A stretch of DNA of 64,000 nt from a virus (Duplodnaviria; Heunggongvirae; Uroviricota; Caudoviricetes), in the IMG/VR virus record IMGVR_UViG_3300037484_000317. One strand, given 5' to 3'. The notes under the pieces were generated by a model. It did not search any database. It was given only the letters and a program-made list of their open reading frames with translations, and was not told the origin of the DNA. The position numbers and the translations under genes were made by a program. This document shows positions 33,118 through 62,058 of the stretch, piece after piece (positions within the stretch are counted from its first letter, which is position 1; each line of letters starts with the position of its first letter).

Positions 33118-35025
33118 TTGGGAGCCCTTGTGACCGAAAGCTCAATCAAAAAGCAGCTCGCCGACGCACTCGCCGACCTCCGCCATGCCTACTACAACAC
33201 GGGCGAGCCTCTCATGGACGATGATGAGTTCGACGCTCTCGTAGAACGCGCTCGTGCCATGGGCCTCGACGTGGATTCGGTTGTAGGGGCCCCCACGGAA
33301 GGGTCCGTTCCCCACAAGACCCCCATGCTGTCCCTTGAAAAGGTGACGACGGCTGAGGGTGTACGGAAGTTCGTGTCGGAGGTCGGTCGCGGGCAGGTCT
33401 TGCTCATCCAGTGCAAGTTCGATGGTGTGAGCCTCTCCCTGCACTACGAGAGTGGCAAGCTTGAGAGGGCCCTGACGCGTGGGGACGGCATGTCGGGCGA
33501 GGACGTGACGCACATCGTTTCGCTCCTGCCCAGCGTGCCCACGGCGCTTCCGGGTGCCGATGCTCCCGGTGCATTCACGGGGGAGATTCGCGGTGAGGTG
33601 GTCATCCACAAGGTGGACCTTCACGCCAAGTTCAAGAACACCCGCAATGCTGTGAGCGGTCTGCTCAACGCCCGAACGAAGTCCCCTGGAGACGCAGCCA
33701 AGTACAAGTGCCGCTTCTACGCATTTGAATTGCTGCATGCTCCCCGAGTAGAGAAGTACAGCCTTAAGGCATGGGGATTCTCTCAGCCCACAGGGTACTC
33801 GTGCACCACCTTCGAGGAGGTCTACGAACACATCCAGACCATCTTGGCGGGGCGCTCGGATCTCCCATACAGCATTGACGGTGTGGTGGTCAAGGTCGTG
33901 GACCTTGAGGTCCGTGCCAAGCTCGGCAATCGAAGCAACTCCCCCCGCTGGGCGTTCGCCTTCAAGCCGGAATCCGAGACGGCTGTGACCCGGCTCAATG
34001 GTGTGACGTGGCAGGTCGGTTCCGGTGGCCAGGTGACGCCTGTAGCCGAGCTGGAGCCCGTGGATCTGATGGGTACTACCATCGCTCGTGCTTCGCTGCA
34101 CAATCCCCTCCAGATTCAGACGCTGGGCATCTGCATCGGCGATGAGGTCGTCATCAAGCGGGCGAATGACGTGATCCCTCAGGTGGTTCGTGTCTCTGTG
34201 CCTGCCGCAGAGCGGGCTAGGATCGTCACACCGTCCGTGTGTCCCGCATGTGCGACGCGTCTCGTGCAGGAAGGCAACAGCCAGCAGGTCCAGTGCCCAG
34301 ATATCAGTGTGTGCCCGGCACAGATCTGTGGCCGCCTTCTCAAGTGGGCAGCACGCCCCGCTGCGGACATGGACGCCATCGGTCCCGTGTGGGTCGAGAA
34401 GTTCGTGGACAGTGGACTGGTGAAGTCCCCCGCTGACTTCTACACCCTGACAGAAGCCAGGCTCTCGGGCCTGGAAGGTATGGGACCGAAAAATCCCGCG
34501 AAGTTCCTCAAGAATATCGAGAAGTCCAAGGCTCTCGGTATGCGTCGGGCTCTCATCGGGTTTGCAATCCACAATGCCAGCGATGGTACAGCCAAGCGTC
34601 TCTGCTGGAACTTCAAGACGGTGGAAGAGGTGGCTACTGCCACTGAGGGACAGCTGATGTCCATCGAAGACATCGGACCTGTCGTCGCAGCGAGCATTCG
34701 ACAGTTTTTCCAGAGCGCAGGGTCGTTGCTCACGGGTCTTCGGACGGCGGGTGTGAACCTCGACCGTCTCCCAGAGGATGCCCCGGCTTCTGCCAATGCC
34801 TCCCTCGTGGGCAAGACCTTCGTGATCACGGGTGCCGTGAGTAATGGCCGCGCAGCCTTCTCCAAGGAGCTGGAGGTGCTTGGCGCCAAGGTGAGTAGCT
34901 CGGTAAGTGCCAACACGACCGCGCTCATCACGGACGATCCTGACGCAACCAGCGGCAAGGCGAAGCAGGCGAGAGACCTGGGCATTCCGTTCCTGACGGA
35001 GGCCCAAGTTCGGGCGATGTTCTGA
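33118..35025 (+). CDS. ligA: NAD-dependent DNA ligase
   Basis: Adenylation motif CKFDGVS (KxDG), an OB/zinc finger CPACATRLVQEGNSQQVQCPD…CPAQ, HhH and C-terminal BRCT-like segments. The start is TTG per the track; a GTG at 33130 is an alternative. Confidence 0.8.
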   Translation: MGALVTESSIKKQLADALADLRHAYYNTGEPLMDDDEFDALVERARAMGLDVDSVVGAPTEGSVPHKTPMLSLEKVTTAEGVRKFVSEVGRGQVLLIQCKFDGVSLSLHYESGKLERALTRGDGMSGEDVTHIVSLLPSVPTALPGADAPGAFTGEIRGEVVIHKVDLHAKFKNTRNAVSGLLNARTKSPGDAAKYKCRFYAFELLHAPRVEKYSLKAWGFSQPTGYSCTTFEEVYEHIQTILAGRSDLPYSIDGVVVKVVDLEVRAKLGNRSNSPRWAFAFKPESETAVTRLNGVTWQVGSGGQVTPVAELEPVDLMGTTIARASLHNPLQIQTLGICIGDEVVIKRANDVIPQVVRVSVPAAERARIVTPSVCPACATRLVQEGNSQQVQCPDISVCPAQICGRLLKWAARPAADMDAIGPVWVEKFVDSGLVKSPADFYTLTEARLSGLEGMGPKNPAKFLKNIEKSKALGMRRALIGFAIHNASDGTAKRLCWNFKTVEEVATATEGQLMSIEDIGPVVAASIRQFFQSAGSLLTGLRTAGVNLDRLPEDAPASANASLVGKTFVITGAVSNGRAAFSKELEVLGAKVSSSVSANTTALITDDPDATSGKAKQARDLGIPFLTEAQVRAMF

Positions 35026-45227: not shown

Positions 45228-46751
45228 ATGAAATTCGACTTCCTCACCCCTGCTGATAAGCCAGCCTGCTATCATGTAGCCAACCCACAGGGTTTGGACG
45301 TCAAGTTGTTTGCGAATCCCAACGTCCTCCTAGAGAAGGATGGGTTCGCGCAGCTCTTTGACTTCCTGGACGTGGCCCGTGCCGTTTCCGACGTGCGGGA
45401 GGCGGAAGTCAAGGGCAGGTTGTCCTACTTTAGGGATGCCCCTGCTGGCATAGACAAGGTCGTTCTGACTCCGGATTTCCACAAGGGGTCTTTCGTTCCT
45501 GTGGGTGTTGTCCTTCGGGCCAATCACTTCGTCATCCCACAGGCCATCGGAAACGACATCTGCTGCGGGATGCGTCTCTTGGTGACGGACATTCCGGTAG
45601 AGGCACTGGATCCCTACTGGCCTGACATCCAGAAGCGGCTACGTGCGATCTTCTTTGCAGGCGAGCGGAATATCCCAATGTCTCCCCGCCAGCGAGAGGC
45701 TGTACTTCGTGAGGGTTTGCCTGGTCTCTTGCGGTTTGCCGAAGACAACGAGAAGACCGGCATTTGGACTCGGTTTGACCGTGCTTCTGAAATGGCCAAC
45801 GTGTCCAGGGCGCACAACAATGGTCAGGTAGAGACTACTCGTCTCTTTGGATTCGAAAAGTTCATCCGCTCTTCCGGAAAGGTGGATGGACGAGATCCTC
45901 AGATCGGATGTGTGGGAGGTGGAAACCACTTTGTGGAGCTGCAACGCATTGATGCTCTCTACTCGTCTCAAGCGCACGAGTGGGGATTGAGCAAGGGATG
46001 TCTGGCTATCATGGTCCACTCCGGGTCTGTGGCGCTGGGTCATACCGTTGGTGGCTACTTCATGGGACGCGCTAAGGAGCTTTTCCCGACGACCGTGAAG
46101 GCTCCGGCAGAAGGCTTCTACCCCATCCCCACAGATGGCCCACTGGCAGATGAGGGACGTTTCTACCTAGACGGGATGGGCAATGCCGCGAACTTCGCTT
46201 TTGCCAACCGCCTCTTTCTTGGGTTGATGGCAGTTCGCGCAATCGAAGAGGCCACAGGGCGCACGGTTTCATCTCGGCTAGTGTATGATGCACCCCACAA
46301 TCTCGTGTTCCACACCGGGAAGAGCATGGTCCATCGGAAGGGTGCCACACCTGCGTACGGCCCTGATGAGAAGGACTACAACGGTCGCCCGGTAATCATT
46401 CCCGGGTCCATGGGGGCGGCTAGTTATCTTCTAGCAGGTCTCGGAAATGAGAACGCTCTTTCGAGCGCATGTCATGGAGCAGGACGGGCTTTGTCGAGAA
46501 GCAAGGCTTCTCATGTGGCTAAGGATGTCTACGAACGTGAGACTGGTGGGCTGCGAATCGTGGGTCCCGTAGACTTCAGGGACCCAGCTCTTTCTCGCCG
46601 ACGGGACATCCTAGATAACTACGAGAAGAGAATGATGGAGGAAGCGCCGTACGCGTATAAGGCTGTGGAGCCTGTAGTTGACTCTGTTGTCGATGCTGAG
46701 ATTGCAACGAGGGTCGCTCGACTCTGGCCCATTTGCACGGTGAAGGGGTAA
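45228..46751 (+). CDS. rtcB: RtcB RNA ligase (long, archaeal/eukaryal-type, 507 aa)
   Basis: GGGNHFVELQ metal-binding motif and the C-terminal HGAGR motif carrying the GMP-attachment His. Confidence 0.8.
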   Translation: MKFDFLTPADKPACYHVANPQGLDVKLFANPNVLLEKDGFAQLFDFLDVARAVSDVREAEVKGRLSYFRDAPAGIDKVVLTPDFHKGSFVPVGVVLRANHFVIPQAIGNDICCGMRLLVTDIPVEALDPYWPDIQKRLRAIFFAGERNIPMSPRQREAVLREGLPGLLRFAEDNEKTGIWTRFDRASEMANVSRAHNNGQVETTRLFGFEKFIRSSGKVDGRDPQIGCVGGGNHFVELQRIDALYSSQAHEWGLSKGCLAIMVHSGSVALGHTVGGYFMGRAKELFPTTVKAPAEGFYPIPTDGPLADEGRFYLDGMGNAANFAFANRLFLGLMAVRAIEEATGRTVSSRLVYDAPHNLVFHTGKSMVHRKGATPAYGPDEKDYNGRPVIIPGSMGAASYLLAGLGNENALSSACHGAGRALSRSKASHVAKDVYERETGGLRIVGPVDFRDPALSRRRDILDNYEKRMMEEAPYAYKAVEPVVDSVVDAEIATRVARLWPICTVKG

Positions 46752-52213: not shown

Positions 52214-52867
52214 TTGACACCTGAACCTTCTGGTATATGTTACCAGTACCCAAAGACAAACAAGATGGCACCCAAAGAAACACGAAATCCTTTCCGATGG
52301 TCACGAGACACTCCGGCAGTCACGCCGAGTATCGTGCTGACTGACCCTCGCTACCCACACAACGTGGGGGCTGCGGTCCGTGCATGCTCGTGCTTTGGGG
52401 TGAAGCAAGTGTGGCTCACGGGTCATCGGGTCGCAGACCAGGTGGCAAAGGCTCAGAGGCTTCCACGTGAAGAGCGCATGAAGGGCTTCTCTGACGTTCA
52501 ACTGGTCCTGGAAGACCGTCCGTTCGACTACTTCGGGAAAGTCACCCCTGTCGCAGTGGAGCTTCTAGAGGGGAGTGAGAACCTCCTGACGTTCGAGCAT
52601 CCTGAGAACGCGGTGTACATCTTCGGACCCGAGGATGGCAGCATCCCTGGTCCGGTGCGCAAGCTGTGTCATCGTCGGGTGTTCATTCCTACACGGCACT
52701 GCACCAATCTAGGCGCCGCAGTGTATCTCTTGTTGTACGACCGCATGGTCAAGGATTTTCATGCGGGCCGGATACAGTCCCTGCCAATCAGCGAGACTCT
52801 GGCTGAAGATCGTGGCTGGGCTGTGGATGACAATCCCGAGTTCTCGGTAGCGGTAGCAGGAAAGTAG
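52214..52867 (+). CDS. SPOUT (SpoU/TrmH-type) RNA 2-prime-O-methyltransferase
   Basis: VVLTDPRYPHNVGAAVRACSCFGV… and AVYIFGPEDGSIPGPV match the TrmH/SpoU motifs. Confidence 0.7.
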   Translation: MTPEPSGICYQYPKTNKMAPKETRNPFRWSRDTPAVTPSIVLTDPRYPHNVGAAVRACSCFGVKQVWLTGHRVADQVAKAQRLPREERMKGFSDVQLVLEDRPFDYFGKVTPVAVELLEGSENLLTFEHPENAVYIFGPEDGSIPGPVRKLCHRRVFIPTRHCTNLGAAVYLLLYDRMVKDFHAGRIQSLPISETLAEDRGWAVDDNPEFSVAVAGK

Positions 52868-52870
52868 ATC

Positions 52871-54040
52871 ATGGCACTCTCAGAAATCAGCTCGTCAAAC
52901 GTCCCCGTCAAGATCTGGTCGCCCCTCAAGGACGTCGAGTCGGCAGCGTTGACGCAGCTTCGTAATACGGCCTCTCTTCCGTGGGTCGCACACCACGTAG
53001 CGGTTATGCCCGATGTCCATTTCGGAATCGGAGCGACGGTAGGAAGCGTTGTCGCCATGCGCGGGGCTGTTTCCCCGGCTTGCGTGGGTGTCGACATTGG
53101 CTGCGGAATGGCTGCAATCCGCACCAGTCTCCGCTCGCATGACCTTCCTCACTCCCTGCTTGCACTGCGCACGGACATCGAGACCGCAGTGCCTGTCGCA
53201 CACAACGGGCACAGCAAGGGAATGAGCCCTTATGCCCGCAAGAGTGAGCTGTGGGCAGAGTTCAAGGACTTGCACCCCAAGGTTCAGGACTTGCTCTCCA
53301 AGGCGCAGATTCAGCTTGGCACTCTGGGGGGTGGCAATCACTTCATCGAGATTTGCATTGATACTGAGAAGCGCGTGTGGGTGATGCTGCACTCGGGCTC
53401 GCGGAACATCGGCAAGTCCTTGGCTGAGATCCACATCGCGGTGGCCAAGAAGCTTGAGCACAACCAACCCCTGGTGGACCGAGACCTTGCGGTGTTTCTT
53501 GCGGGCACAAAGGAGATGCAGGACTATCGGCGAGATCTGTACTTCGCACAACGCTACGCGGCTGAGAACCGACAGGTGATGATCTCGCTGGTCAAGGACG
53601 TGATGGTCAAGCACTTCCCGCAGGTCACCTACGACCCGGTGATTGCGTGCCATCATAACTACGTCTCTGAAGAGACGCACTTTGGAGACGATCTGTTCGT
53701 GACTCGCAAGGGTGCCATCTCGGCCCGCAAGGGTGAGCTTGGGATCATTCCTGGCAGCATGGGCACCAAGTCCTACATCGTGAGTGGGCTTGGTTGTGAA
53801 GAGAGCTTCTGCTCGGCTTCGCATGGTGCTGGGCGCCGCATGTCACGAGGTGACGCAAAGCGGCGCTTCACACGAGATGACCTCGAAGAGCAGACGGCTG
53901 GTGTCGAGTGCCGCAAGGACGGGGGCGTGATCGACGAAATCCCAGCTTGTTACAAAGATATCGATCAGGTCATGGCGAATCAAGGCGATCTCGTGGCGAT
54001 CGTACACGAACTGAAACAAGTCCTGTGCGTTAAGGGATGA
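52871..54040 (+). CDS. rtcB: RtcB RNA ligase (short bacterial-type, 389 aa)
   Basis: GGGNHFIEICID and C-terminal SHGAGRRMSR. Confidence 0.8.
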   Translation: MALSEISSSNVPVKIWSPLKDVESAALTQLRNTASLPWVAHHVAVMPDVHFGIGATVGSVVAMRGAVSPACVGVDIGCGMAAIRTSLRSHDLPHSLLALRTDIETAVPVAHNGHSKGMSPYARKSELWAEFKDLHPKVQDLLSKAQIQLGTLGGGNHFIEICIDTEKRVWVMLHSGSRNIGKSLAEIHIAVAKKLEHNQPLVDRDLAVFLAGTKEMQDYRRDLYFAQRYAAENRQVMISLVKDVMVKHFPQVTYDPVIACHHNYVSEETHFGDDLFVTRKGAISARKGELGIIPGSMGTKSYIVSGLGCEESFCSASHGAGRRMSRGDAKRRFTRDDLEEQTAGVECRKDGGVIDEIPACYKDIDQVMANQGDLVAIVHELKQVLCVKG

Positions 54041-55122
54041 AGATGGATCAGACTACAGCAGTCGAGCGTTTGCGGAAGGCAAAACGTCCTGAAGACATCT
54101 TCGGGACGCTTGCGGAAGGCCCACTTCCGACGCGCTTGCACGCACTGAAGCACCGCTTCGATAGTCTTCTACTGCATGTGCATCCGGACCGTAATCCTGA
54201 CTTGCCGGATGCGGGACTACACATCACTCGCCTTATGGCTCTCCGAAAGGAAGCAGAGAACCTGTTGCAGACGGGGGCTTACGGCAAGGTGCGCAAGGCC
54301 GTGGTCGAAGCCGTGCTCAAATCTCGTACGGGCGTGTACAAGGTGCACAAGGAATATCGGGTGGGGGAGGTTGCAGACTTGTTCCTCGGCGAGACGGACA
54401 AGGGGCAGAAGTGCCTGTTGAAGGTGGTTCGGCACCCGAGTGAAAACGACCTACTTGATTTCGAAGCACGGACACTTGCGGAGCTGCACAAGCAGACTGG
54501 GGACAAGGCGAAGACCTTCCAGAAGTACCTTCCGAAGCTTCTCGACAGCTTTCCGCTAATCGAGGGGGGTAAACACCGGAGGGTGAATGTCTTGGACGTG
54601 GCTGAGGACTACGTCTCTCTCGCGGAGATTCACGCCGCATACCCTGACGGCATTGACCCCCGTGATGCGGCCTGGATGATTCGACGAGTCTTCGAGGTGC
54701 TCGGCTGGATTCACGAACTGGGGTACGTCCACGGTGCGGTGCTTCCAGAGCATGTGCTGGTTCACCCGACAGGACACGGAGCACGCCTAGTGGGCTGGTC
54801 CTATGCGGTCAAGACAGGACAACGGCTCTTGGCAGTCAGTGCTCTTCGCAAGGACATGTACCCGCCGTCTGTCATGAGCCGTAAGCCCGCCACACCAGTG
54901 CTTGACGTCCAGCTCGTTCGTGAGTGCGCAACTATCTTGCTGTCCGACAAGAACGGTTTGCTGCGGGCCGATGTACCGAAGGCACTCTCGGCTTTCCTGA
55001 CCAAGTGTAAGAGTGGAAAAGTCCTGGACGGTTGGGATGCCTACCGTGAGTACAACGAAGTTCTGAAGAAGTGTTATGGCAAGCGGGAGTATCGCGCGTT
55101 TGCGATGCCGACGAGTGTCTGA
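54037..55122 (+). CDS. J-domain (DnaJ-like) protein fused to a degenerate protein-kinase-like domain (pseudokinase)
   Basis: J-domain EDIFGTL…LKHRFDSLLLHVHPDRNPD…LHITRLMALRKEAENLL with the HPD motif. The kinase fold is QKCLLKVV (VAIK-like), …FEARTLAELH (alphaC), IHELGYVHGAVLPEHVLV (HRDLKPEN with D to A and K to V), and HGARLVGWSYAV (DFG replaced by VGW). Confidence 0.55.
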   Translation: MKMDQTTAVERLRKAKRPEDIFGTLAEGPLPTRLHALKHRFDSLLLHVHPDRNPDLPDAGLHITRLMALRKEAENLLQTGAYGKVRKAVVEAVLKSRTGVYKVHKEYRVGEVADLFLGETDKGQKCLLKVVRHPSENDLLDFEARTLAELHKQTGDKAKTFQKYLPKLLDSFPLIEGGKHRRVNVLDVAEDYVSLAEIHAAYPDGIDPRDAAWMIRRVFEVLGWIHELGYVHGAVLPEHVLVHPTGHGARLVGWSYAVKTGQRLLAVSALRKDMYPPSVMSRKPATPVLDVQLVRECATILLSDKNGLLRADVPKALSAFLTKCKSGKVLDGWDAYREYNEVLKKCYGKREYRAFAMPTSV

Positions 55123-55136
55123 GAAGGAGAGTCAAA

Positions 55137-56108
55137 ATGGGATATTCAAGCTGGTCGGGCGACGCATACGATCACATCAGCAGGCCACGTGCGAAGATGG
55201 ACTACGGCACTGCGAGGGCAACAGTCTTCTCGTCTCGACTCAAGTCGAGTCTCGACCCGAAGGGTGTGAAGGTTCGAGAGTCGCGAGACAGCGCCGACCA
55301 TCCGGAGAGCAACGCGATCGGCGTGCTGTTCGATGTGACGGGCAGCATGGGGCAGACGCCGTATGAGTTCGCCCAGAAGAAGTTGGGTGGCCTGATGAAG
55401 ATGCTCGTCGACAAGGGTGTGATCGGCCACCCCCAGGTACTCTTCGGCGCGATCGGCGACTCCTACTCGGACACAACGCCGTTCCAGGTCGGGCAGTTCG
55501 AGTCGGGCGTCGAGATGGACACATGTCTCACGGACATCTTCATCGAGGGCGGCGGCGGTGGCCAAAACAAGGAGAGCTACGGGCTGGGGCACTACTTCTT
55601 CGCACGTCACACGTCGATCGACTGCTCTGAGAAGCGTGGAAAGAAGGGCTACCTCTTCACGGTCGGTGACGAGCTGGTCTGGCCGACAATCACGGCCGCC
55701 GAAGCCGAGCGGGTCTTCGGGGACACGATCGAAGATACAACGGTGGCTGACCTCATCCATGAGTGTGAGAGCCGCTACAACGTGTTCCACATCGTCGTGG
55801 GGACGTCCACCGGTAATCGGCCTGAGATCCTCGCAGGATGGAAGGCGCTGCTCGGCGAGCGTGCACTCAAGCTCGATGACCCGGACAACATCTGCGAGCT
55901 GATTGCAGCGACCATAGGCCTCTGCGAGGGGCACAGCCTCGATGTGGTGAATGGCGTTCTGCGGGACTCCGGAGCCAGCGCAGGCGCCGTGAAGTCGGTT
56001 GGGGCTGCCATCGTTCCGCTGCGGGACTCCCTGGCGCGTTCGGCCGTTGGTTCGATCCTCGGGAACCTCCCAGCAAGCGCTGCACCCAGCGGCACCATCC
56101 GCCTCTGA
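55137..56108 (+). CDS. von Willebrand factor A (vWA) domain protein with MIDAS
   Basis: VLFDVTGSMG (DxTGS MIDAS) plus downstream T and D residues; a GAAGGAGAG RBS precedes the internal ATG. Confidence 0.6.
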   Translation: MGYSSWSGDAYDHISRPRAKMDYGTARATVFSSRLKSSLDPKGVKVRESRDSADHPESNAIGVLFDVTGSMGQTPYEFAQKKLGGLMKMLVDKGVIGHPQVLFGAIGDSYSDTTPFQVGQFESGVEMDTCLTDIFIEGGGGGQNKESYGLGHYFFARHTSIDCSEKRGKKGYLFTVGDELVWPTITAAEAERVFGDTIEDTTVADLIHECESRYNVFHIVVGTSTGNRPEILAGWKALLGERALKLDDPDNICELIAATIGLCEGHSLDVVNGVLRDSGASAGAVKSVGAAIVPLRDSLARSAVGSILGNLPASAAPSGTIRL

Positions 56109-56111
56109 GCC

Positions 56112-57374
56112 ATGTCCACCCACATCGTCACTGATCTGGGTTTTGGTGACGGTGGGAAGGGCACCATAGTCGATGCGGATGCGCGTCGCTGTTCGAGTCC
56201 ACCACTTGTGGTGAGGTACAACGGCGGCGCGCAAGCTGGACACAACGTGCATACAGCGGACGGGCGGCACCATACATTCTCACAGTTTGGGGCCGCCACG
56301 TTTGTACCGGGCTCTAGGACGTTGCTTTCGAAGCACTTCATCCTGCACCCGGGTGGGCTCATGGTTGAGAACGAGCACCTTGTCTCGCTTGGCGTTACTG
56401 ACGCCCTCAAGCGTCTCAGTATCGACGCACGAGCGCTGGTCATCACGCCGTATCATCAAGCCGCCAACCGTCTACGGGAAGCTGCTCGTGGTTCGGCTCG
56501 GCATGGCACTTGTGGTTTAGGGATTGGGGAAACGGTCGCCGATTCACTAGAGCACAGGGACGAAGCTTTGCGTGTGGCAGATCTTCTGGACCCCGCAACC
56601 CTTCGGCGAAAACTTTCCTCCGCGTGTGAGAGGATGCACCAGCAGATGCCATTGCCGTGGTCCGTGCGAGCGAACTTTGAGCTATGGCGTACGGCAGATC
56701 TGCTTACGAAGATCGGAAAGTTTCTTCATGTCATCTCCGCAAGTGATGCAGATTCTCAAATCAGAGAGTCAGAGCATGTGATTTTCGAGGGGGCACAGGG
56801 CGTGCTCCTCGATGAGTGGCTTGGGTTCCATCCGCACACAACGTGGAGCACCACGACCACGGCAAACGCTGACGCCATGATTGCGGAGACTGGCCGCACC
56901 GGGCCCGTAGAGCGAATCGGCGTCGTTCGTGCGTACGCAACCCGCCATGGTCAGGGCCCGTTCCCCACGGAGGATGCAGCACTCACAGAGCAGCTCCGCG
57001 ATACCCACAACACGGACACTGGACCTCAGGGCAGCTTCCGTGTCGGTTGGTTTGATGTGCCCCTCACCAAGTACGCATTGAGTGCGTGCCCTGGGATCAC
57101 GTCTCTCGCTGTGACGTGTCTCGATCGTCTTGCAAATGTTCCCGAGTGGTCTGTATGCGAGGCGTACGAAGGGGGAGATCGTCTAGTAGTGAACCACGGG
57201 CATGACCTCGCGTACCAGGAGCAACTGACGCACTACCTCATGGGGTGCACGCCCGTGCTGCGGGGGGTACCCAGTGATGTCCAAGGGTACGTGCGCGAGA
57301 TCGAGCAGTGTACAGGTCTGCCGGTCTCTGTCATTTCGCTGGGCCCCACAGCAGAAGACAAGCGCTGGATTTAG
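56112..57374 (+). CDS. adenylosuccinate synthetase family protein (PurA-like; candidate PurZ)
   Basis: P-loop GDGGKGTIVD (canonical GDEGKGK), VVRYNGGAQAGHNV, TCGLGIGET, FEGAQGVLLD, AYATRHGQGPFPTE, and SLGPTAEDK are collinear with PurA along the whole length. Confidence 0.75.
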   Translation: MSTHIVTDLGFGDGGKGTIVDADARRCSSPPLVVRYNGGAQAGHNVHTADGRHHTFSQFGAATFVPGSRTLLSKHFILHPGGLMVENEHLVSLGVTDALKRLSIDARALVITPYHQAANRLREAARGSARHGTCGLGIGETVADSLEHRDEALRVADLLDPATLRRKLSSACERMHQQMPLPWSVRANFELWRTADLLTKIGKFLHVISASDADSQIRESEHVIFEGAQGVLLDEWLGFHPHTTWSTTTTANADAMIAETGRTGPVERIGVVRAYATRHGQGPFPTEDAALTEQLRDTHNTDTGPQGSFRVGWFDVPLTKYALSACPGITSLAVTCLDRLANVPEWSVCEAYEGGDRLVVNHGHDLAYQEQLTHYLMGCTPVLRGVPSDVQGYVREIEQCTGLPVSVISLGPTAEDKRWI

Positions 57375-57817: not shown

Positions 57818-58093
57818 ATGACTGCATGGGTCGAAAAAAGTCCGGGTCAGAACGCTGCTGTGATCGACGAAGACAGCGGTCTAGGTGACTCCGCAGTACT
57901 TGTGGGGCTGGACAGACTTGATTGGATTCGGCTTCCTGAGAAGCTGGGTGGGATGCAGGTACGTGTCCTTTCCAGAGAACAGACGTTGTGCCCATTCCAC
58001 AAGAATCATGATTGCGCCCATTACCACCTAGACAGTGGATTCTCTGTGGCTGAGTGTGACCAGTTCTATTGGTACAGGAAGGTCACCCCGTGA
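57818..58093 (+). CDS. hypothetical small protein
   Basis: ATG after the upstream TGA. CPFHKNHDCAHYH. Confidence 0.4.
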   Translation: MTAWVEKSPGQNAAVIDEDSGLGDSAVLVGLDRLDWIRLPEKLGGMQVRVLSREQTLCPFHKNHDCAHYHLDSGFSVAECDQFYWYRKVTP

Positions 58094-58692
58094 AGCACTA
58101 TCCAAGCGTCAGTCGAGAGCCCCGGTACGGAGCACCATGCTACGTGTTCCCGAAGTACGACGGGTCGAACATCCGCGTCGAGTGGTCGCCCAAGAAGGGC
58201 TTCTCGAAGTTTGGATCCCGCAAGGTTCTGATCGGAGATGATGCTCTGCTTGCTGCTGCGTTCCCCCTACTTCGTGAGCATGAGGATGCCCTCGCGAAGA
58301 TCTTCCGTGGGGAGCGATGGGAGCGGGTGATTTGCTTCTTCGAGTACTGGGGCCCGAAGTCGTTTGCTGGGCTGCACGAGCCCGGGGACGTGATGAGCAC
58401 GACACTCATTGACCTTGACGTGTTCAAGCGGGGTCAAATCGACCCACGGGACTTCATCAAGCTCACGGAAGGCTTGCCCAACGTGGCGCAGTGCATCGGC
58501 ACTCGGTTCAACGCTGAGAACGCTGAACAGGTCCGGGACGGTACGTTCGAGGGGCAGACCGATGAGGGTGTCGTCTGCAAGGTGCCGTCATCTCGCAAAT
58601 GGGAACCGCCGTACATGTTCAAGAGCAAGCGGTCTACCTGGATTGAGCGGGTCTATGCTCTTCACGGGGCACGAGCGGAAGAGTTCCTGTGA
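58090..58692 (+). CDS. ATP-dependent RNA ligase, minimal nucleotidyltransferase domain (Rnl2/Rnl-like)
   Basis: Motif I FPKYDGSNIRV (KxDGxN adenylation Lys), III ICFFEYWG, IV LIDLDVF, V EGVVCKVPSSRKWEPPYMFKSK. The GTG start overlaps the upstream stop. Confidence 0.6.
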   Translation: MKHYPSVSREPRYGAPCYVFPKYDGSNIRVEWSPKKGFSKFGSRKVLIGDDALLAAAFPLLREHEDALAKIFRGERWERVICFFEYWGPKSFAGLHEPGDVMSTTLIDLDVFKRGQIDPRDFIKLTEGLPNVAQCIGTRFNAENAEQVRDGTFEGQTDEGVVCKVPSSRKWEPPYMFKSKRSTWIERVYALHGARAEEFL

Positions 58693-60837: not shown

Positions 60838-62058
60838 ATGAAATTCTCGATCAGTAGGAAGAGCCTTTTGCAGGGTCTGGATTGTATTCGCACCACGGCT
60901 GCTAAGAAGAGCACAATTCCAATCCTGAACGGTGTCTGTCTCAAGGCAGAGGGAAGTGGCGTATGCTTCTCCGCAACAGACTGCACTGTGTTCATTCGGA
61001 CTCAGATCGCAGCGACGGTTGCACTGGAGGGCTCCGTTGTGGTGAATGCCCGAGATCTCTACGACATTGCGAAGGTGTTACCAGACGGACCTGTGACCTT
61101 CGAAGTGAGCGAGCACCTTGTACTGGAAGTGACTTGTGGGAGAATTAGCCACAAGTTGCAGGGCCATTCGAGCGAGGACTTTCCGGTGTTCCCTGAACGT
61201 GTGGATGCGGGGTGTGTGAAGATTGATGTGGGGATGGTCAAGGAGTTGATTGACTGCACCCAGTACGCAATCTCGAATGGGAATTGGAACAGCCCGGGTA
61301 CCTGTGGGGCTTCCTTTGAGTGTGATGGTGGCACTCTTCGTATGATCGCTACAGACGGCCTGCGCCTCAGCAAGGCGGAGATCAAGATGGATGGGGTTGT
61401 GTCCGACTTCAAGATGCTCGTGCCGTCCAAGGGCATCCAAGAGCTGCTGGGGCTCGTTGAAGGGGTTCAGGTCAGTCGTAAAAAGGGAGATCATCGAGGC
61501 GCGGCCCGATGGCAACCTCTGGTGGTTGAAGTGAGTCAAGAGCGTGGGACAGCGTTCTTTTACAGCTCTGGGATACAACTCTCGGTACGGCTTATCGAAG
61601 CTACATTTCCTTCGTACGAGTACGTCATCCCCAAGAAGGATGAGATCGTTGTACTTGCCTCGCGGATTGTTCTGCTAGAGGCATTGAAGAGGATCTCTCA
61701 TGGTAAGTGGGGTAGCGTTCGGCTTGAGTTCCTTCCAGGGAAGTGGAACAGAGACAGCTCTGAATATCTTTCAGGGAGTCTGAAGATCTTCAGTGCCGAT
61801 CCTAATGTGGGTGAAAGATCCGAGGAGGTCACCGTGGATTACACGGGGGACCCCATCACTATCGGGTTCGAAGCGATGTACCTGCTCGATGTGCTCGGAG
61901 CCCTGCATTCCGATGAGATTTCGCTAGGATTTTCTGTGACCAAGGGGACATCGAACACAATCAATCTGATGACTATCCGACCTGTACAAGAGTACAGTTA
62001 CATCGATTTCGTGGGTTTGGTCATGTCATTGCGGGCAAAACCAGACGGGACCTTTTGA
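60838..62058 (+). CDS. dnaN: DNA polymerase III beta sliding clamp
   Basis: The N-terminus MKFSISRKSLLQGLDCIRTTAAKKSTIPILNGVCLKAEGSGVCFSATDCTVFIR is collinear with DnaN, and the three-domain length fits. Confidence 0.7.
   Translation: MKFSISRKSLLQGLDCIRTTAAKKSTIPILNGVCLKAEGSGVCFSATDCTVFIRTQIAATVALEGSVVVNARDLYDIAKVLPDGPVTFEVSEHLVLEVTCGRISHKLQGHSSEDFPVFPERVDAGCVKIDVGMVKELIDCTQYAISNGNWNSPGTCGASFECDGGTLRMIATDGLRLSKAEIKMDGVVSDFKMLVPSKGIQELLGLVEGVQVSRKKGDHRGAARWQPLVVEVSQERGTAFFYSSGIQLSVRLIEATFPSYEYVIPKKDEIVVLASRIVLLEALKRISHGKWGSVRLEFLPGKWNRDSSEYLSGSLKIFSADPNVGERSEEVTVDYTGDPITIGFEAMYLLDVLGALHSDEISLGFSVTKGTSNTINLMTIRPVQEYSYIDFVGLVMSLRAKPDGTF

What the first reader, a model, noticed from the sequence alone, without database searches (positions are those of the whole stretch)
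54037..56108. J-domain-pseudokinase fusion followed by a vWA/MIDAS protein, wedged between RtcB-2 and the PurA homolog
Seen in sequence: ORF 54037 has a clear DnaJ J-domain (HPD in LLLHVHPDRNPD, flanked by helices II and III). It is fused to a protein-kinase-like fold in which both catalytic Asp residues are absent (HRD to HGA, DFG to VGW), while the VAIK-like Lys and alphaC Glu are kept. The next gene is a vWA domain with an intact DxTGS MIDAS.

Established knowledge: J-domains recruit Hsp70/DnaK. Pseudokinases act as scaffolds or decoys. vWA/MIDAS proteins mediate metal-dependent protein-protein contacts. Ro60/Rsr, a vWA-containing RNA chaperone, is famously operonic with RtcB in Salmonella.

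Inference: a phage module that targets a host kinase-signalling or RNA-quality-control complex to DnaK, or decoys it. The architecture is not a described family to my knowledge.
Basis: partly seen in the sequence, partly recalled or inferred. Interest (0 to 1): 0.6.

Follow-up and report, generated by a model that had tools for sequence, protein, structure and literature searches.

The report
J-pseudokinase, vWA, PurA-like gene cassette
The two flagged genes are real, but they belong with the PurA-like gene downstream, forming a three-gene set that recurs in many large phages and bacterial chromosomes, that I found described nowhere, and whose enzyme has lost the residues that make adenylosuccinate.

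Summary
ORF 54037-55122 is a J-domain (invariant HPD) fused to a protein-kinase fold that lacks the HRD Asp, the catalytic-loop Lys and Asn, and the DFG Asp. ORF 55137-56108 is a vWA domain with an intact MIDAS motif.

The interpretation mostly fails. RtcB is next to this pair in none of 166 related loci, and nothing in ORF2 resembles Ro60.

The conserved partner is the PurA-like gene at 56112-57374. The order kinase-like, vWA, PurA-like recurs in large phage contigs, in about 200 Cluster C mycobacteriophages, and in chromosomes of Actinomycetota, Chloroflexota, Bacteroidota, Planctomycetota and Myxococcota. In Actinomycetota an NrtR-like Nudix regulator often precedes it. The core is vWA plus PurA-like. 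The J-pseudokinase is a frequent accessory.

The PurA-like enzyme keeps its GTP and catalytic residues. Across the whole family it has replaced the aspartate-binding and IMP-phosphate contacts, so it is neither PurA nor PurZ.

The vWA protein has an invariant Met-Gly N-terminus. Its C-terminal ...R-L tail tracks the presence of the J-pseudokinase.

My working model, at low confidence: the J-domain brings host DnaK to a vWA adaptor that serves the PurA-like ligase. I found no paper describing this cassette.

The parts
54037..55122 (+). Gene 1: J-domain plus pseudokinase (361 aa). The ATG overlaps the RtcB stop codon (ATGA). An alternative start is ATG 54043.
54037..54282 (+). J-domain (aa 1-82). 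Helix II is aa 30-48 and helix III is aa 59-79.
54181..54189 (+). HPD tripeptide (H49-P50-D51), the Hsp70-contact motif. Invariant in the alignments of database homologs and present in 119 of 135 cassette-linked members.
54298..55086 (+). Kinase-like domain (aa 88-350). K129 lies at 54421-54423 and E143 at 54463-54465.
54730..54753 (+). Degenerate catalytic loop H232-G-A-V-L-P-E-H239, in place of HRDLKPEN. The Asp, Lys and Asn are all replaced.
54793..54798 (+). G253-W254 in place of the D-F/W of DFG. The Asp is lost in the window clade and kept in 74 of 135 relatives.
55137..56108 (+). Gene 2: vWA/MIDAS protein (323 aa). Shine-Dalgarno GAAGGAG lies at about 55123-55129.
55137..55142 (+). Invariant Met-Gly N-terminus. 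The start codon is ATG in 163 of 166 sequences and residue 2 is Gly in 165 of 165.
55275..55310 (+). Invariant RESRDSxxHPxS motif (aa 47-58) just before strand 1.
55332..55346 (+). MIDAS motif D66-V-T68-G-S70.
55668..55673 (+). Distal MIDAS D178-E179, at the end of strand 171-177. In mycobacteriophage Pinkcreek an intein sits 5 residues upstream of this site.
56034..56105 (+). Low-confidence C-terminal tail ending ...S-G-T-I-R-L. This tail type tracks the presence of the J-pseudokinase.
56112..57374 (+). Its ATG lies 3 nt after the gene 2 stop codon.

Best explanation
The flagged genes are the first two genes of a conserved three-gene cassette: J-domain pseudokinase, MIDAS vWA protein, and a divergent PurA-like ligase. 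The cassette is shared by large phages and by bacterial chromosomes.

Shown:
- The cassette and its gene order.
- The vWA plus PurA-like pair is the core and the J-pseudokinase is a frequent accessory.
- The kinase domain cannot catalyse phosphotransfer in the canonical way.
- The PurA-like enzyme keeps its GTP site and catalytic Asp13, His41 and Gln224. It has lost the L-aspartate contacts and most of the IMP 5'-phosphate contacts.

Inferred working model:
- The PurA-like protein still activates a purine 6-oxo group with GTP, but joins it to a nucleophile other than aspartate.
- The vWA protein binds the enzyme or its substrate through the MIDAS face. This is the role vWA co-chaperones play for MoxR AAA+ ATPases.
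- The J-pseudokinase docks on the vWA C-terminal ...G-V-x-R-L tail and uses its HPD motif to bring in host DnaK as the ATP-driven remodeller.
- In the phage the cassette would be a borrowed nucleotide-metabolism or nucleotide-modification module, not an RNA-repair accessory.

My step-wise confidence: cassette 0.95; not PurA or PurZ chemistry 0.8; DnaK recruitment 0.6; tail-to-pseudokinase contact 0.5; activase or adaptor role 0.25.
For: Synteny:
- The PurA-like gene lies downstream of the vWA gene, on the same strand, in 82 of 83 loci in the viral set. The kinase-like gene is present in 71 of 83. That set is 80 IMG/VR loci plus three annotated phages.
- In 83 cellular loci, PurA-like is present in 73, the kinase-like gene in 67 and an NrtR-like Nudix gene in 40.
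- Called genes in Actinomadura and Actinoplanes show NrtR, J-kinase, a 322-324 aa protein and Adenylsucc_synt with overlapping or abutting ends.
- About 200 Cluster C mycobacteriophages carry the kinase-like and vWA genes; the one region inspected, Pinkcreek, reads kinase, vWA, a small ORF, PurA-like. In the Vibrio phage Va1 and Rhizobium phage TM30 regions inspected, vWA is followed by PurA-like with no kinase.
- In the window the three genes abut, with gaps of 14 and 3 nt.

PurA-like signature in 86 sequences:
- Kept: D13, K16, H41, Q224, T239, D333.
- Changed: N38 to Q (84 of 86); T129 to C or V; R131 to V, M or L; R143 lost; V273 to H (85); T301 to Q (83); R303 deleted (86); R305 to F, L or M.

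J-domain. Pseudokinase. vWA fold.

vWA tail: the last residue is Leu in 110 of 138 loci with the kinase gene and in 2 of 19 without it (Fisher p 5e-9).

An intein is inserted 5 residues before the MIDAS Asp in mycobacteriophage homologs, which marks that site as functionally critical.

Precedent: vWA as co-chaperone of MoxR, and DnaJ proteins in jumbo phages that are predicted to recruit host Hsp70 (PMC7159879 and PMC7824862).
Against: - No interaction was tested. No multimer prediction was possible.
- The tail association is not corrected for phylogeny.
- The vWA protein has about 20 invariant polar residues and an invariant N-terminal Gly. That is more than a simple adaptor needs, and it suggests the protein binds a small molecule or is itself a substrate.
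- No Hsp70 gene lies in the window or in any of the 166 loci, so DnaK involvement rests on the J-domain alone.
- About 15-20% of loci lack the J-pseudokinase. A subgroup has a kinase-like gene without HPD, placed after PurA.
- The substrate and product of the PurA-like enzyme are unknown.
Confidence: 0.4

Rival explanations
1. Protein purinylation. The PurA-like enzyme uses the free alpha-amine of the invariant N-terminal Gly of the vWA protein in place of L-aspartate. This would make an N6-linked AMP-protein adduct. The pseudokinase nucleotide pocket, the J-domain and DnaK would then read or process that adduct.
For: - Invariant Met-Gly start and M-G-[SGY]-[GST]-x-[WY] N-terminus in 165 of 165 sequences across phages and five phyla.
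- In the PurA-like enzyme the Asp-binding Arg and Thr residues are replaced by aromatic or hydrophobic residues and Gln.
- The pseudokinase keeps the beta3 Lys in 104 of 135 members, the alphaC Glu in 98 and the DFG Asp in 74, so many members may still bind a nucleotide.
Against: - There is no direct evidence.
- No covariation between the vWA N-terminus and the PurA loop beyond shared ancestry.
- A conserved N-terminus could be purely structural.
- No precedent for this chemistry on proteins is known to me.
Confidence: 0.12
2. Nucleotide-signal or stress system. The PurA-like enzyme makes a modified purine nucleotide as a signal or protective metabolite. The vWA protein and pseudokinase sense or buffer it. 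In Actinomycetota an NrtR-like Nudix regulator controls expression. Phages carry the cassette to mimic or counter the host pathway.
For: - An NrtR-like Nudix/winged-helix gene with an intact REUxEE box sits at the head of the operon in 40 of 83 cellular loci and in a few viral contigs.
- The distribution favours bacteria with complex lifestyles, as do the conflict systems described in PMC7159879.
- The vWA protein has many invariant polar residues and a GGGG loop.
Against: - No hit of either flagged protein to PADLOC defence models beyond weak generic kinase matches.
- The two chromosomal contexts inspected look like ordinary metabolic and regulatory genes, not defence islands.
- No effector domain is evident.
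Confidence: 0.18
3. A phage module that hands a host kinase-signalling or Ro60/RtcB RNA-quality-control complex to DnaK, or decoys it.
For: - RtcB lies directly upstream in the window, with overlapping stop and start codons.
- The region also holds a SpoU methylase and an RNA-ligase-like gene.
- The J-domain is real.
Against: - RtcB, SpoU and the RNA ligase are absent from all 166 related loci.
- ORF2 gives no Pfam hit (so no TROVE match), and no Ro60 chain is among the top structural matches listed.
- The cassette is chromosomal in many bacteria.
Confidence: 0.04
4. An active atypical kinase that phosphorylates the vWA protein, as in TerY-P-type vWA/kinase/phosphatase triads, with catalytic residues supplied from elsewhere in the fold.
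For: - The kinase fold is intact and predicted with high confidence.
- The beta3 Lys and alphaC Glu are kept in the window.
- Many relatives carry a CK2-like DW(G) motif.
- Kinase plus vWA pairing has precedent in TerY-P triads (my own knowledge of Anantharaman et al. 2012).
Against: - None of 135 members has Asp at the HRD position. The catalytic-loop Lys and Asn are also replaced.
- The window protein also lacks the DFG Asp.
- No PP2C phosphatase appears in the called genes of L084 or L086, or beside the window genes.
Confidence: 0.08
5. An ordinary auxiliary purA that boosts AMP synthesis, with the two upstream genes unrelated passengers.
For: - Full-length match to Pfam Adenylsucc_synt (E 1e-76) and to E. 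coli PurA (E 1e-40).
- The GTP and catalytic residues are kept.
Against: - The aspartate-binding residues T301, R303 and R305 and the IMP-phosphate contacts are replaced across the whole family.
- The near-obligate synteny with the vWA gene across phyla and phages argues against chance neighbours.
Confidence: 0.06

Closest known systems
MoxR AAA+ / vWA chaperone and co-chaperone pairs (CbbQ-CbbO, NorQ-NorD, CoxD-CoxE, Mg-chelatase ChlI-ChlD)
   Same: A MIDAS vWA protein is encoded next to the enzyme it may serve, together with a gene that supplies or recruits an ATP-driven remodeller. The NorD vWA domain is among the structural matches. vWA is described as a peptide-binding co-chaperone in PMC7159879.
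   Different: There is no MoxR or other AAA+ gene in the cassette. The recruiting element is a J-domain, which implies Hsp70. The putative client is a PurA-like ligase. An activase role is inferred, not shown.
J-domain co-chaperones with a client-binding domain, including the DnaJ proteins of jumbo phages and eukaryotic GAK/auxilin
   Same: A J-domain with an HPD motif, fused to a second domain that would select the client. Auxilin J-domains are among the profile hits. Jumbo-phage DnaJ proteins are predicted to recruit host Hsp70 (PMC7824862). GAK combines a kinase domain and a J-domain (my own knowledge).
   Different: Here the J-domain is N-terminal and fused directly to a catalytically dead Hanks-type kinase fold. 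There is no Gly/Phe region, no zinc finger and no DnaJ C-terminal domain. In GAK the kinase is active and the J-domain is C-terminal.
Adenylosuccinate synthetase PurA, and phage PurZ / PurZ0
   Same: Same fold over the full length, with the same P-loop, Asp13, His41, Gln224 and the guanine-specificity Asp333.
   Different: Asp13 is kept, so this is not PurZ, which has Ser there (PMC12884076). The Asp-binding TTGRRRR loop reads xWQG-xFR, and N38, T129, R131, R143 and V273 are all changed. It is linked to vWA and J-pseudokinase genes, whereas the PurZ papers I read describe DatZ/MazZ or DutZ/DmtZ partners and never mention vWA or kinase partners.
TerY-P triad (vWA + Ser/Thr kinase + PP2C phosphatase)
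   Same: Adjacent vWA and kinase-fold genes in bacteria and phages.
   Different: The kinase is dead. No PP2C partner was seen. A PurA-like gene is the constant partner instead.
Bacterial pseudokinase families ActPs1-3, GLW, CP1, DYD and DLHK (review PMC12599244)
   Same: A Hanks-type fold with degraded catalytic motifs, frequent in Actinomycetota.
   Different: The review text never mentions a J-domain, DnaJ or Hsp70. In the sections I read, ActPs1 and ActPs3 have substitutions in all three catalytic residues and GLW replaces HRD with GLW and the beta3 Lys with Leu/Trp. This family instead keeps the beta3 Lys and often the DFG Asp and has HGA in place of HRD. I did not read the ActPs2, CP1, DYD or DLHK sections.

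Membership tests
J-domain (DnaJ/Hsp40 co-chaperone domain) | HPD tripeptide in the loop between helices II and III | tested here: met
   H49-P50-D51 is invariant in A1, A4 and A5 and present in 119 of 135 cassette members. The AF2 model places it between helices 30-48 and 59-79.
J-domain (DnaJ/Hsp40 co-chaperone domain) | Sequence homology to known J-domains | tested here: met
   Family profile A5 hits only J-domain chains in the PDB, best E 2.4e-7. Pfam DnaJ is hit by 11 of 25 members. The window protein alone is sub-threshold (E 0.035).
J-domain (DnaJ/Hsp40 co-chaperone domain) | Stimulates Hsp70/DnaK ATPase | not testable with these tools
   This needs biochemistry. No Hsp70 gene lies in the window or in the 166 loci.
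Active Hanks-type Ser/Thr protein kinase | beta3 Lys (VAIK) and alphaC Glu | tested here: met
   K129 aligns to the StkP VAVK Lys. K129 and E143 are invariant in A4. In the wider family, Lys is present in 104 of 135 members and Glu in 98.
Active Hanks-type Ser/Thr protein kinase | HRD catalytic Asp, with the catalytic-loop Lys and Asn | tested here: not met
   HGAVLPEH aligns to StkP HRDLKPQN. None of 135 members has Asp at this position.
Active Hanks-type Ser/Thr protein kinase | DFG metal-binding Asp | tested here: not met
   It is G253 in the window. In relatives it is D in 74, S in 38 and G in 22 of 135.
vWA / MIDAS domain | vWA (Rossmann-like alpha/beta) fold | tested here: met
vWA / MIDAS domain | DxSxS motif after strand 1, plus a distal Asp | tested here: met
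   D66-V-T68-G-S70 and D178 are invariant in 166 sequences. Thr replaces the first Ser. I could not assign the MIDAS Thr of the middle loop because no model coordinates were available.
vWA / MIDAS domain | Binds a divalent metal and an acidic ligand | not testable with these tools
   This needs biochemistry or a solved structure.
Ro60 / Rsr (TROVE + vWA), operonic with RtcB | TROVE HEAT-repeat ring N-terminal to the vWA domain | tested here: not met
Ro60 / Rsr (TROVE + vWA), operonic with RtcB | Conserved linkage to rtcB | tested here: not met
   No RtcB hit in any of the 166 related loci.
MoxR-vWA chaperone pair | Adjacent MoxR-type AAA+ ATPase gene | tested here: not met
   No AAA+ gene abuts the cassette in the window or in the L084 or L086 gene lists.
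TerY-P triad | PP2C phosphatase and an active kinase next to the vWA gene | tested here: not met
   The kinase is catalytically dead. No PP2C appears among the called neighbours.
Adenylosuccinate synthetase (PurA) | GTP P-loop, Asp13, His41, Gln224 and guanine-specificity Asp333 | tested here: met
   These residues are kept in 84-85 of 86 cassette enzymes, including the window.
Adenylosuccinate synthetase (PurA) | L-aspartate site (Thr301, Arg303, Arg305, Arg131) | tested here: not met
   T301 becomes Q (83 of 86). R303 is deleted (86 of 86). R305 becomes F, L or M. R131 becomes V, M or L. The residue roles are from my knowledge of the E. coli enzyme.
Adenylosuccinate synthetase (PurA) | IMP 5'-phosphate contacts (Asn38, Thr129, Thr239, Arg143') | tested here: not met
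   N38 becomes Q (84 of 86), T129 becomes C or V, and R143 becomes H, Y, G or others. Only T239 is kept.
PurZ / PurZ0 (2-aminoadenine pathway) | Ser in place of Asp13 | tested here: not met
   Asp is present in 85 of 86 sequences, including the window GFGDGGKG. The criterion comes from PMC12884076.

The most novel reading that the evidence does not exclude
The cassette could be a previously unknown protein-nucleotide conjugation system. A PurA-derived GTP-dependent ligase would attach a purine nucleotide through C6 to the invariant N-terminal glycine of its vWA partner (or to another non-aspartate amine). A J-domain pseudokinase would read the adduct and couple it to Hsp70. The system would be shared between bacteria with complex lifestyles and their large phages.
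Probability: 0.12. Interest if true: 0.92.

Novelty: new variant of a known kind. Interest (0 to 1): 0.7.

Why it matters
If the synteny reflects function, this is a widespread module that nobody appears to have studied. The vWA family alone comprises about 1,700 clusters at 50% identity. It occurs in at least 586 loci across the species-representative genomes scanned, and in about 200 sequenced mycobacteriophages.

Three things would follow:
- It would add a third branch to the PurA enzyme family, beside PurA and PurZ, with unknown chemistry.
- It would give the first bacterial or phage case I know of in which a vWA adaptor is paired with a J-domain and Hsp70 instead of a MoxR ATPase.
- It would assign a role to a pseudokinase family that a recent review of bacterial pseudokinases does not mention.

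The cassette is also tractable. Cluster C mycobacteriophages and Rhodococcus or Streptomyces strains can be manipulated genetically.

There is a practical warning for annotation. 'PurA-like adenylosuccinate synthetase', 'serine/threonine kinase' and 'molecular chaperone DnaJ' are probably all misleading names for these genes.

Tried and rejected
- A nucleotide search of the two genes against 50,697 phage records found nothing. Only protein-level searches worked.
- Pfam, NCBIfam and PADLOC gave nothing for ORF2 and only weak generic kinase hits for ORF1.
I rebuilt the alignment.
- All-against-all clustering of ORFs in the 80 loci from the genome scan, meant to find further conserved neighbours, failed. 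Spurious high-GC ORFs chained everything into one cluster. I relied on targeted tblastn and the called genes of L084 and L086 instead.
- My first post-hoc regular expression for the tail motif was too narrow. I replaced it with a simple count of the last residue.
- Longer vWA homologs were checked for domain fusions. They turned out to be a probable frameshift fusion, a miscalled start and intein-containing forms.
- There is no Hsp70 gene in the window or in any locus.
- Covariation between the vWA N-terminus and the PurA loop showed nothing beyond shared ancestry.
- Ten literature searches and several full-text look-ups found no description of the cassette.
- I considered PurZ and a Z-genome and rejected them, because Asp13 is kept.
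- I considered a Ro60 link and rejected it.

Full report
**1. What is in the sequence**

The window carries a run of genes on the + strand: a SpoU-type methylase (52214-52867), RtcB (52871-54040), ORF1 (54037-55122), ORF2 (55137-56108), a PurA homolog (56112-57374) and an RNA-ligase-like gene (58069-58692).

The junctions are tight. The ORF1 ATG overlaps the RtcB stop codon. ORF2 starts 14 nt after the ORF1 stop, behind a GAAGGAG ribosome-binding site. The PurA-like ATG lies 3 nt after the ORF2 stop.

The window matches a 160.8-kb JGI contig. It has phage-type content: an NAD-dependent DNA ligase, a sliding clamp and a second RtcB.

**2. ORF1 is a J-domain fused to a pseudokinase**

The single sequence scores only weakly against Pfam DnaJ (E 0.035). 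The family evidence is much stronger:
- A profile of the N-terminal 82 residues of 25 relatives hits only J-domain structures in the PDB. These include E. coli DnaJ, DNAJA1 and auxilin, with a best E of 2.4e-7.
- 11 of those 25 relatives pass Pfam DnaJ at E 0.01 or better.
- HPD (H49-P50-D51) is invariant.
- The AF2 model (pLDDT 93.7) places HPD between two long helices, aa 30-48 and 59-79.

The remainder is a protein-kinase fold. PHROG 3043 scores E 2e-35. Foldseek scores E 1e-10 against AAK1, VRK1, the CASK pseudokinase, YabT and PknB.

An HMM realignment to the genuine kinases StkP and CK2 settles the catalytic residues:
- The beta3 Lys is kept (K129).
- HRDLKPxN reads H-G-A-V-L-P-E-H, so the catalytic Asp, Lys and Asn are all gone.
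- The DFG Asp is Gly in the window.

In 135 cassette-linked relatives, none has Asp at the HRD position. The DFG position is Asp in 74, Ser in 38 and Gly in 22.

**3. ORF2 is a vWA/MIDAS protein**

No profile library names it, apart from PHROG 2971 of unknown function. The AF2 model (pLDDT 89.7) matches only vWA domains:
- Foldseek gives probability 1.0 against SpaC, the NorD vWA domain, VWF A3 and the Rea1 MIDAS domain.

D66-x-T68-x-S70 and D178 are invariant in 166 homologs. No Ro60 chain appears among the top matches listed, and ORF2 gives no Pfam hit, so no TROVE match.

**4. The real unit is a three-gene cassette**

A protein-level search of sequenced phages found the kinase-like gene in 204 records and the vWA gene in 220.

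The annotated regions show the pattern:
- Mycobacteriophage Pinkcreek: kinase, vWA, a small ORF, then PurA-like.
- Vibrio phage Va1 and Rhizobium phage RHph_TM30: vWA followed directly by PurA-like, with no kinase.

Eighty IMG/VR loci were retrieved using the vWA alignment. Scored together with the three annotated phages:
- PurA-like lies downstream on the same strand in 82 of 83.
- The kinase-like gene is present in 71 of 83.
- RtcB, SpoU and the RNA ligase are present in none.

The cassette is also chromosomal. In Actinomadura oligospora and Actinoplanes friuliensis the called genes run NUDIX/NrtR, J-kinase, a 322-324 aa protein, then Adenylsucc_synt, with overlapping or abutting ends.

They come from Actinomycetota, Chloroflexota, Bacteroidota, Planctomycetota and Myxococcota. 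Of 83 cellular loci, 73 have PurA-like, 67 have the kinase-like gene and 40 have the NrtR-like gene.

The vWA family comprises about 1,700 clusters at 50% identity.

**5. The PurA-like enzyme is neither PurA nor PurZ**

It aligns over its full length to E. coli PurA (E 1e-40). Across 86 cassette enzymes the pattern is consistent.

| Group | Residues (E. coli numbering) | State in the cassette enzymes |
|---|---|---|
| GTP and catalytic | D13, K16, H41, Q224, T239, D333 | Kept |
| IMP phosphate contacts | N38, T129, R143 | N38 to Q (84 of 86); T129 to C or V; R143 lost |
| Aspartate contacts | R131, T301, R303, R305 | R131 to V, M or L; T301 to Q (83); R303 deleted (86); R305 to F, L or M |
| Other | V273, T300 | V273 to H (85); T300 to W, F or Y |

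By my knowledge of the E. coli enzyme, the changed residues are the contacts for L-aspartate and for the IMP 5'-phosphate. PurZ is defined by Ser at position 13 (PMC12884076), and here Asp is kept. I infer the same GTP-dependent activation chemistry acting on different substrates.

**6. Further regularities**

(a) The vWA protein starts with Met-Gly in 165 of 165 sequences. It also has about 20 invariant polar residues, including an RESRDSxxHP motif and a GGGG loop.

(b) Its C-terminal tail is predicted with low confidence and has the consensus (S/D)-G-(V/T/I)-x-(R/K)-L. It ends in Leu in 110 of 138 loci that have the J-pseudokinase and in 2 of 19 that lack it. Fisher's p is 5e-9, not corrected for phylogeny. 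This points to a contact between the tail and the pseudokinase, or between the tail and DnaK.

(c) Mycobacteriophage homologs carry an intein 5 residues before the MIDAS Asp.

(d) No Hsp70 gene is linked to the cassette, so the J-domain would have to use host DnaK.

**7. Mechanism**

I commit, at low confidence, to a model in which Hsp70 is coupled to a vWA adaptor:
- The PurA-like ligase is the catalytic core.
- The vWA protein binds it, or its substrate, through the MIDAS face.
- The J-pseudokinase docks on the vWA tail and brings in DnaK.

This parallels MoxR-vWA pairs that service enzymes (PMC7159879) and the DnaJ co-chaperones noted in jumbo phages (PMC7824862).

The rivals are listed with their tests. 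The most interesting is that the invariant N-terminal Gly of the vWA protein replaces aspartate as the nucleophile.

**8. Literature and novelty**

Ten searches and several full-text look-ups found no description of this cassette. The text of a 2025 review of bacterial pseudokinase families contains no mention of a J-domain, DnaJ or Hsp70. The PurZ papers do not treat this PurA branch or its neighbours.

All the parts are known folds. The combination and the altered PurA active site appear to be new. I rate it a new variant of a known kind (a vWA co-chaperone module plus a branch of the PurA family), with a modest chance of something more radical.

**9. Verdict**

Interest 0.7.

Noticed in passing
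window 45228-46751 and 52871-54040; 52214-52867; 58069-58692: Two RtcB paralogs (26% identical over 441 aligned residues), a SpoU-type methylase and an RNA-ligase-like gene lie within 14 kb. This looks like an RNA-repair cluster. It is not linked to the cassette in any other genome examined.
   Followed up: partly
window 54037-55122 and 55137-56108: The public JGI gene calls for both proteins are shorter at the N-terminus (295 and 303 aa, against 361 and 323 aa supported by homologs). The short ORF1 call would remove most of the J-domain.
   Followed up: yes
L001 4965-6788 (Mycobacterium phage Pinkcreek gp241); also P0278: The vWA homolog is 607 aa because an intein (Cys1 ... SSN, then Cys+1) is inserted between KGY and (C)IFIGDE, 5 residues before the MIDAS Asp. 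Pfam Hint and Intein_splicing hits are weak. The annotated start is probably 12 codons too early, since the homologous MG start is internal.
   Followed up: partly
L084 7183-8004; L086 7252-8004; L082, L083, L020, L025, L057: An NrtR-like Nudix plus winged-helix gene with an intact REUxEE Nudix box heads the cassette in most Actinomycetota loci and in a few IMG/VR contigs. Its ligand and role are unknown.
   Followed up: partly
L020, L024, L025, L057, L068, L083: A variant arrangement: the kinase-like gene lies downstream of the PurA-like gene and lacks the J-domain or the HPD motif.
   Followed up: no
L087, L088, L091, L101: Cellular loci with the J-pseudokinase and vWA pair but no PurA-like gene within 6 kb. 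The PurA-like gene may lie elsewhere in the genome or be missing.
   Followed up: no
L129, L134, L142, L146, L163, L164, L166 (Rhodococcus, Nocardia and relatives): In these loci the vWA C-terminal tail ends in a different acidic motif (D-D-V-x-F-x) in place of G-V-x-R-L, although the J-pseudokinase is present.
   Followed up: no
window 33118-35025; 60838-62058; whole window: An NAD-dependent DNA ligase and a sliding-clamp gene are present. ARAGORN finds no tRNA genes in the 64 kb.
   Followed up: no
window 55146-56273 (- strand): A 375-aa antisense ORF overlaps the vWA gene. It is most likely a high-GC artefact and I did not examine it further.
   Followed up: no
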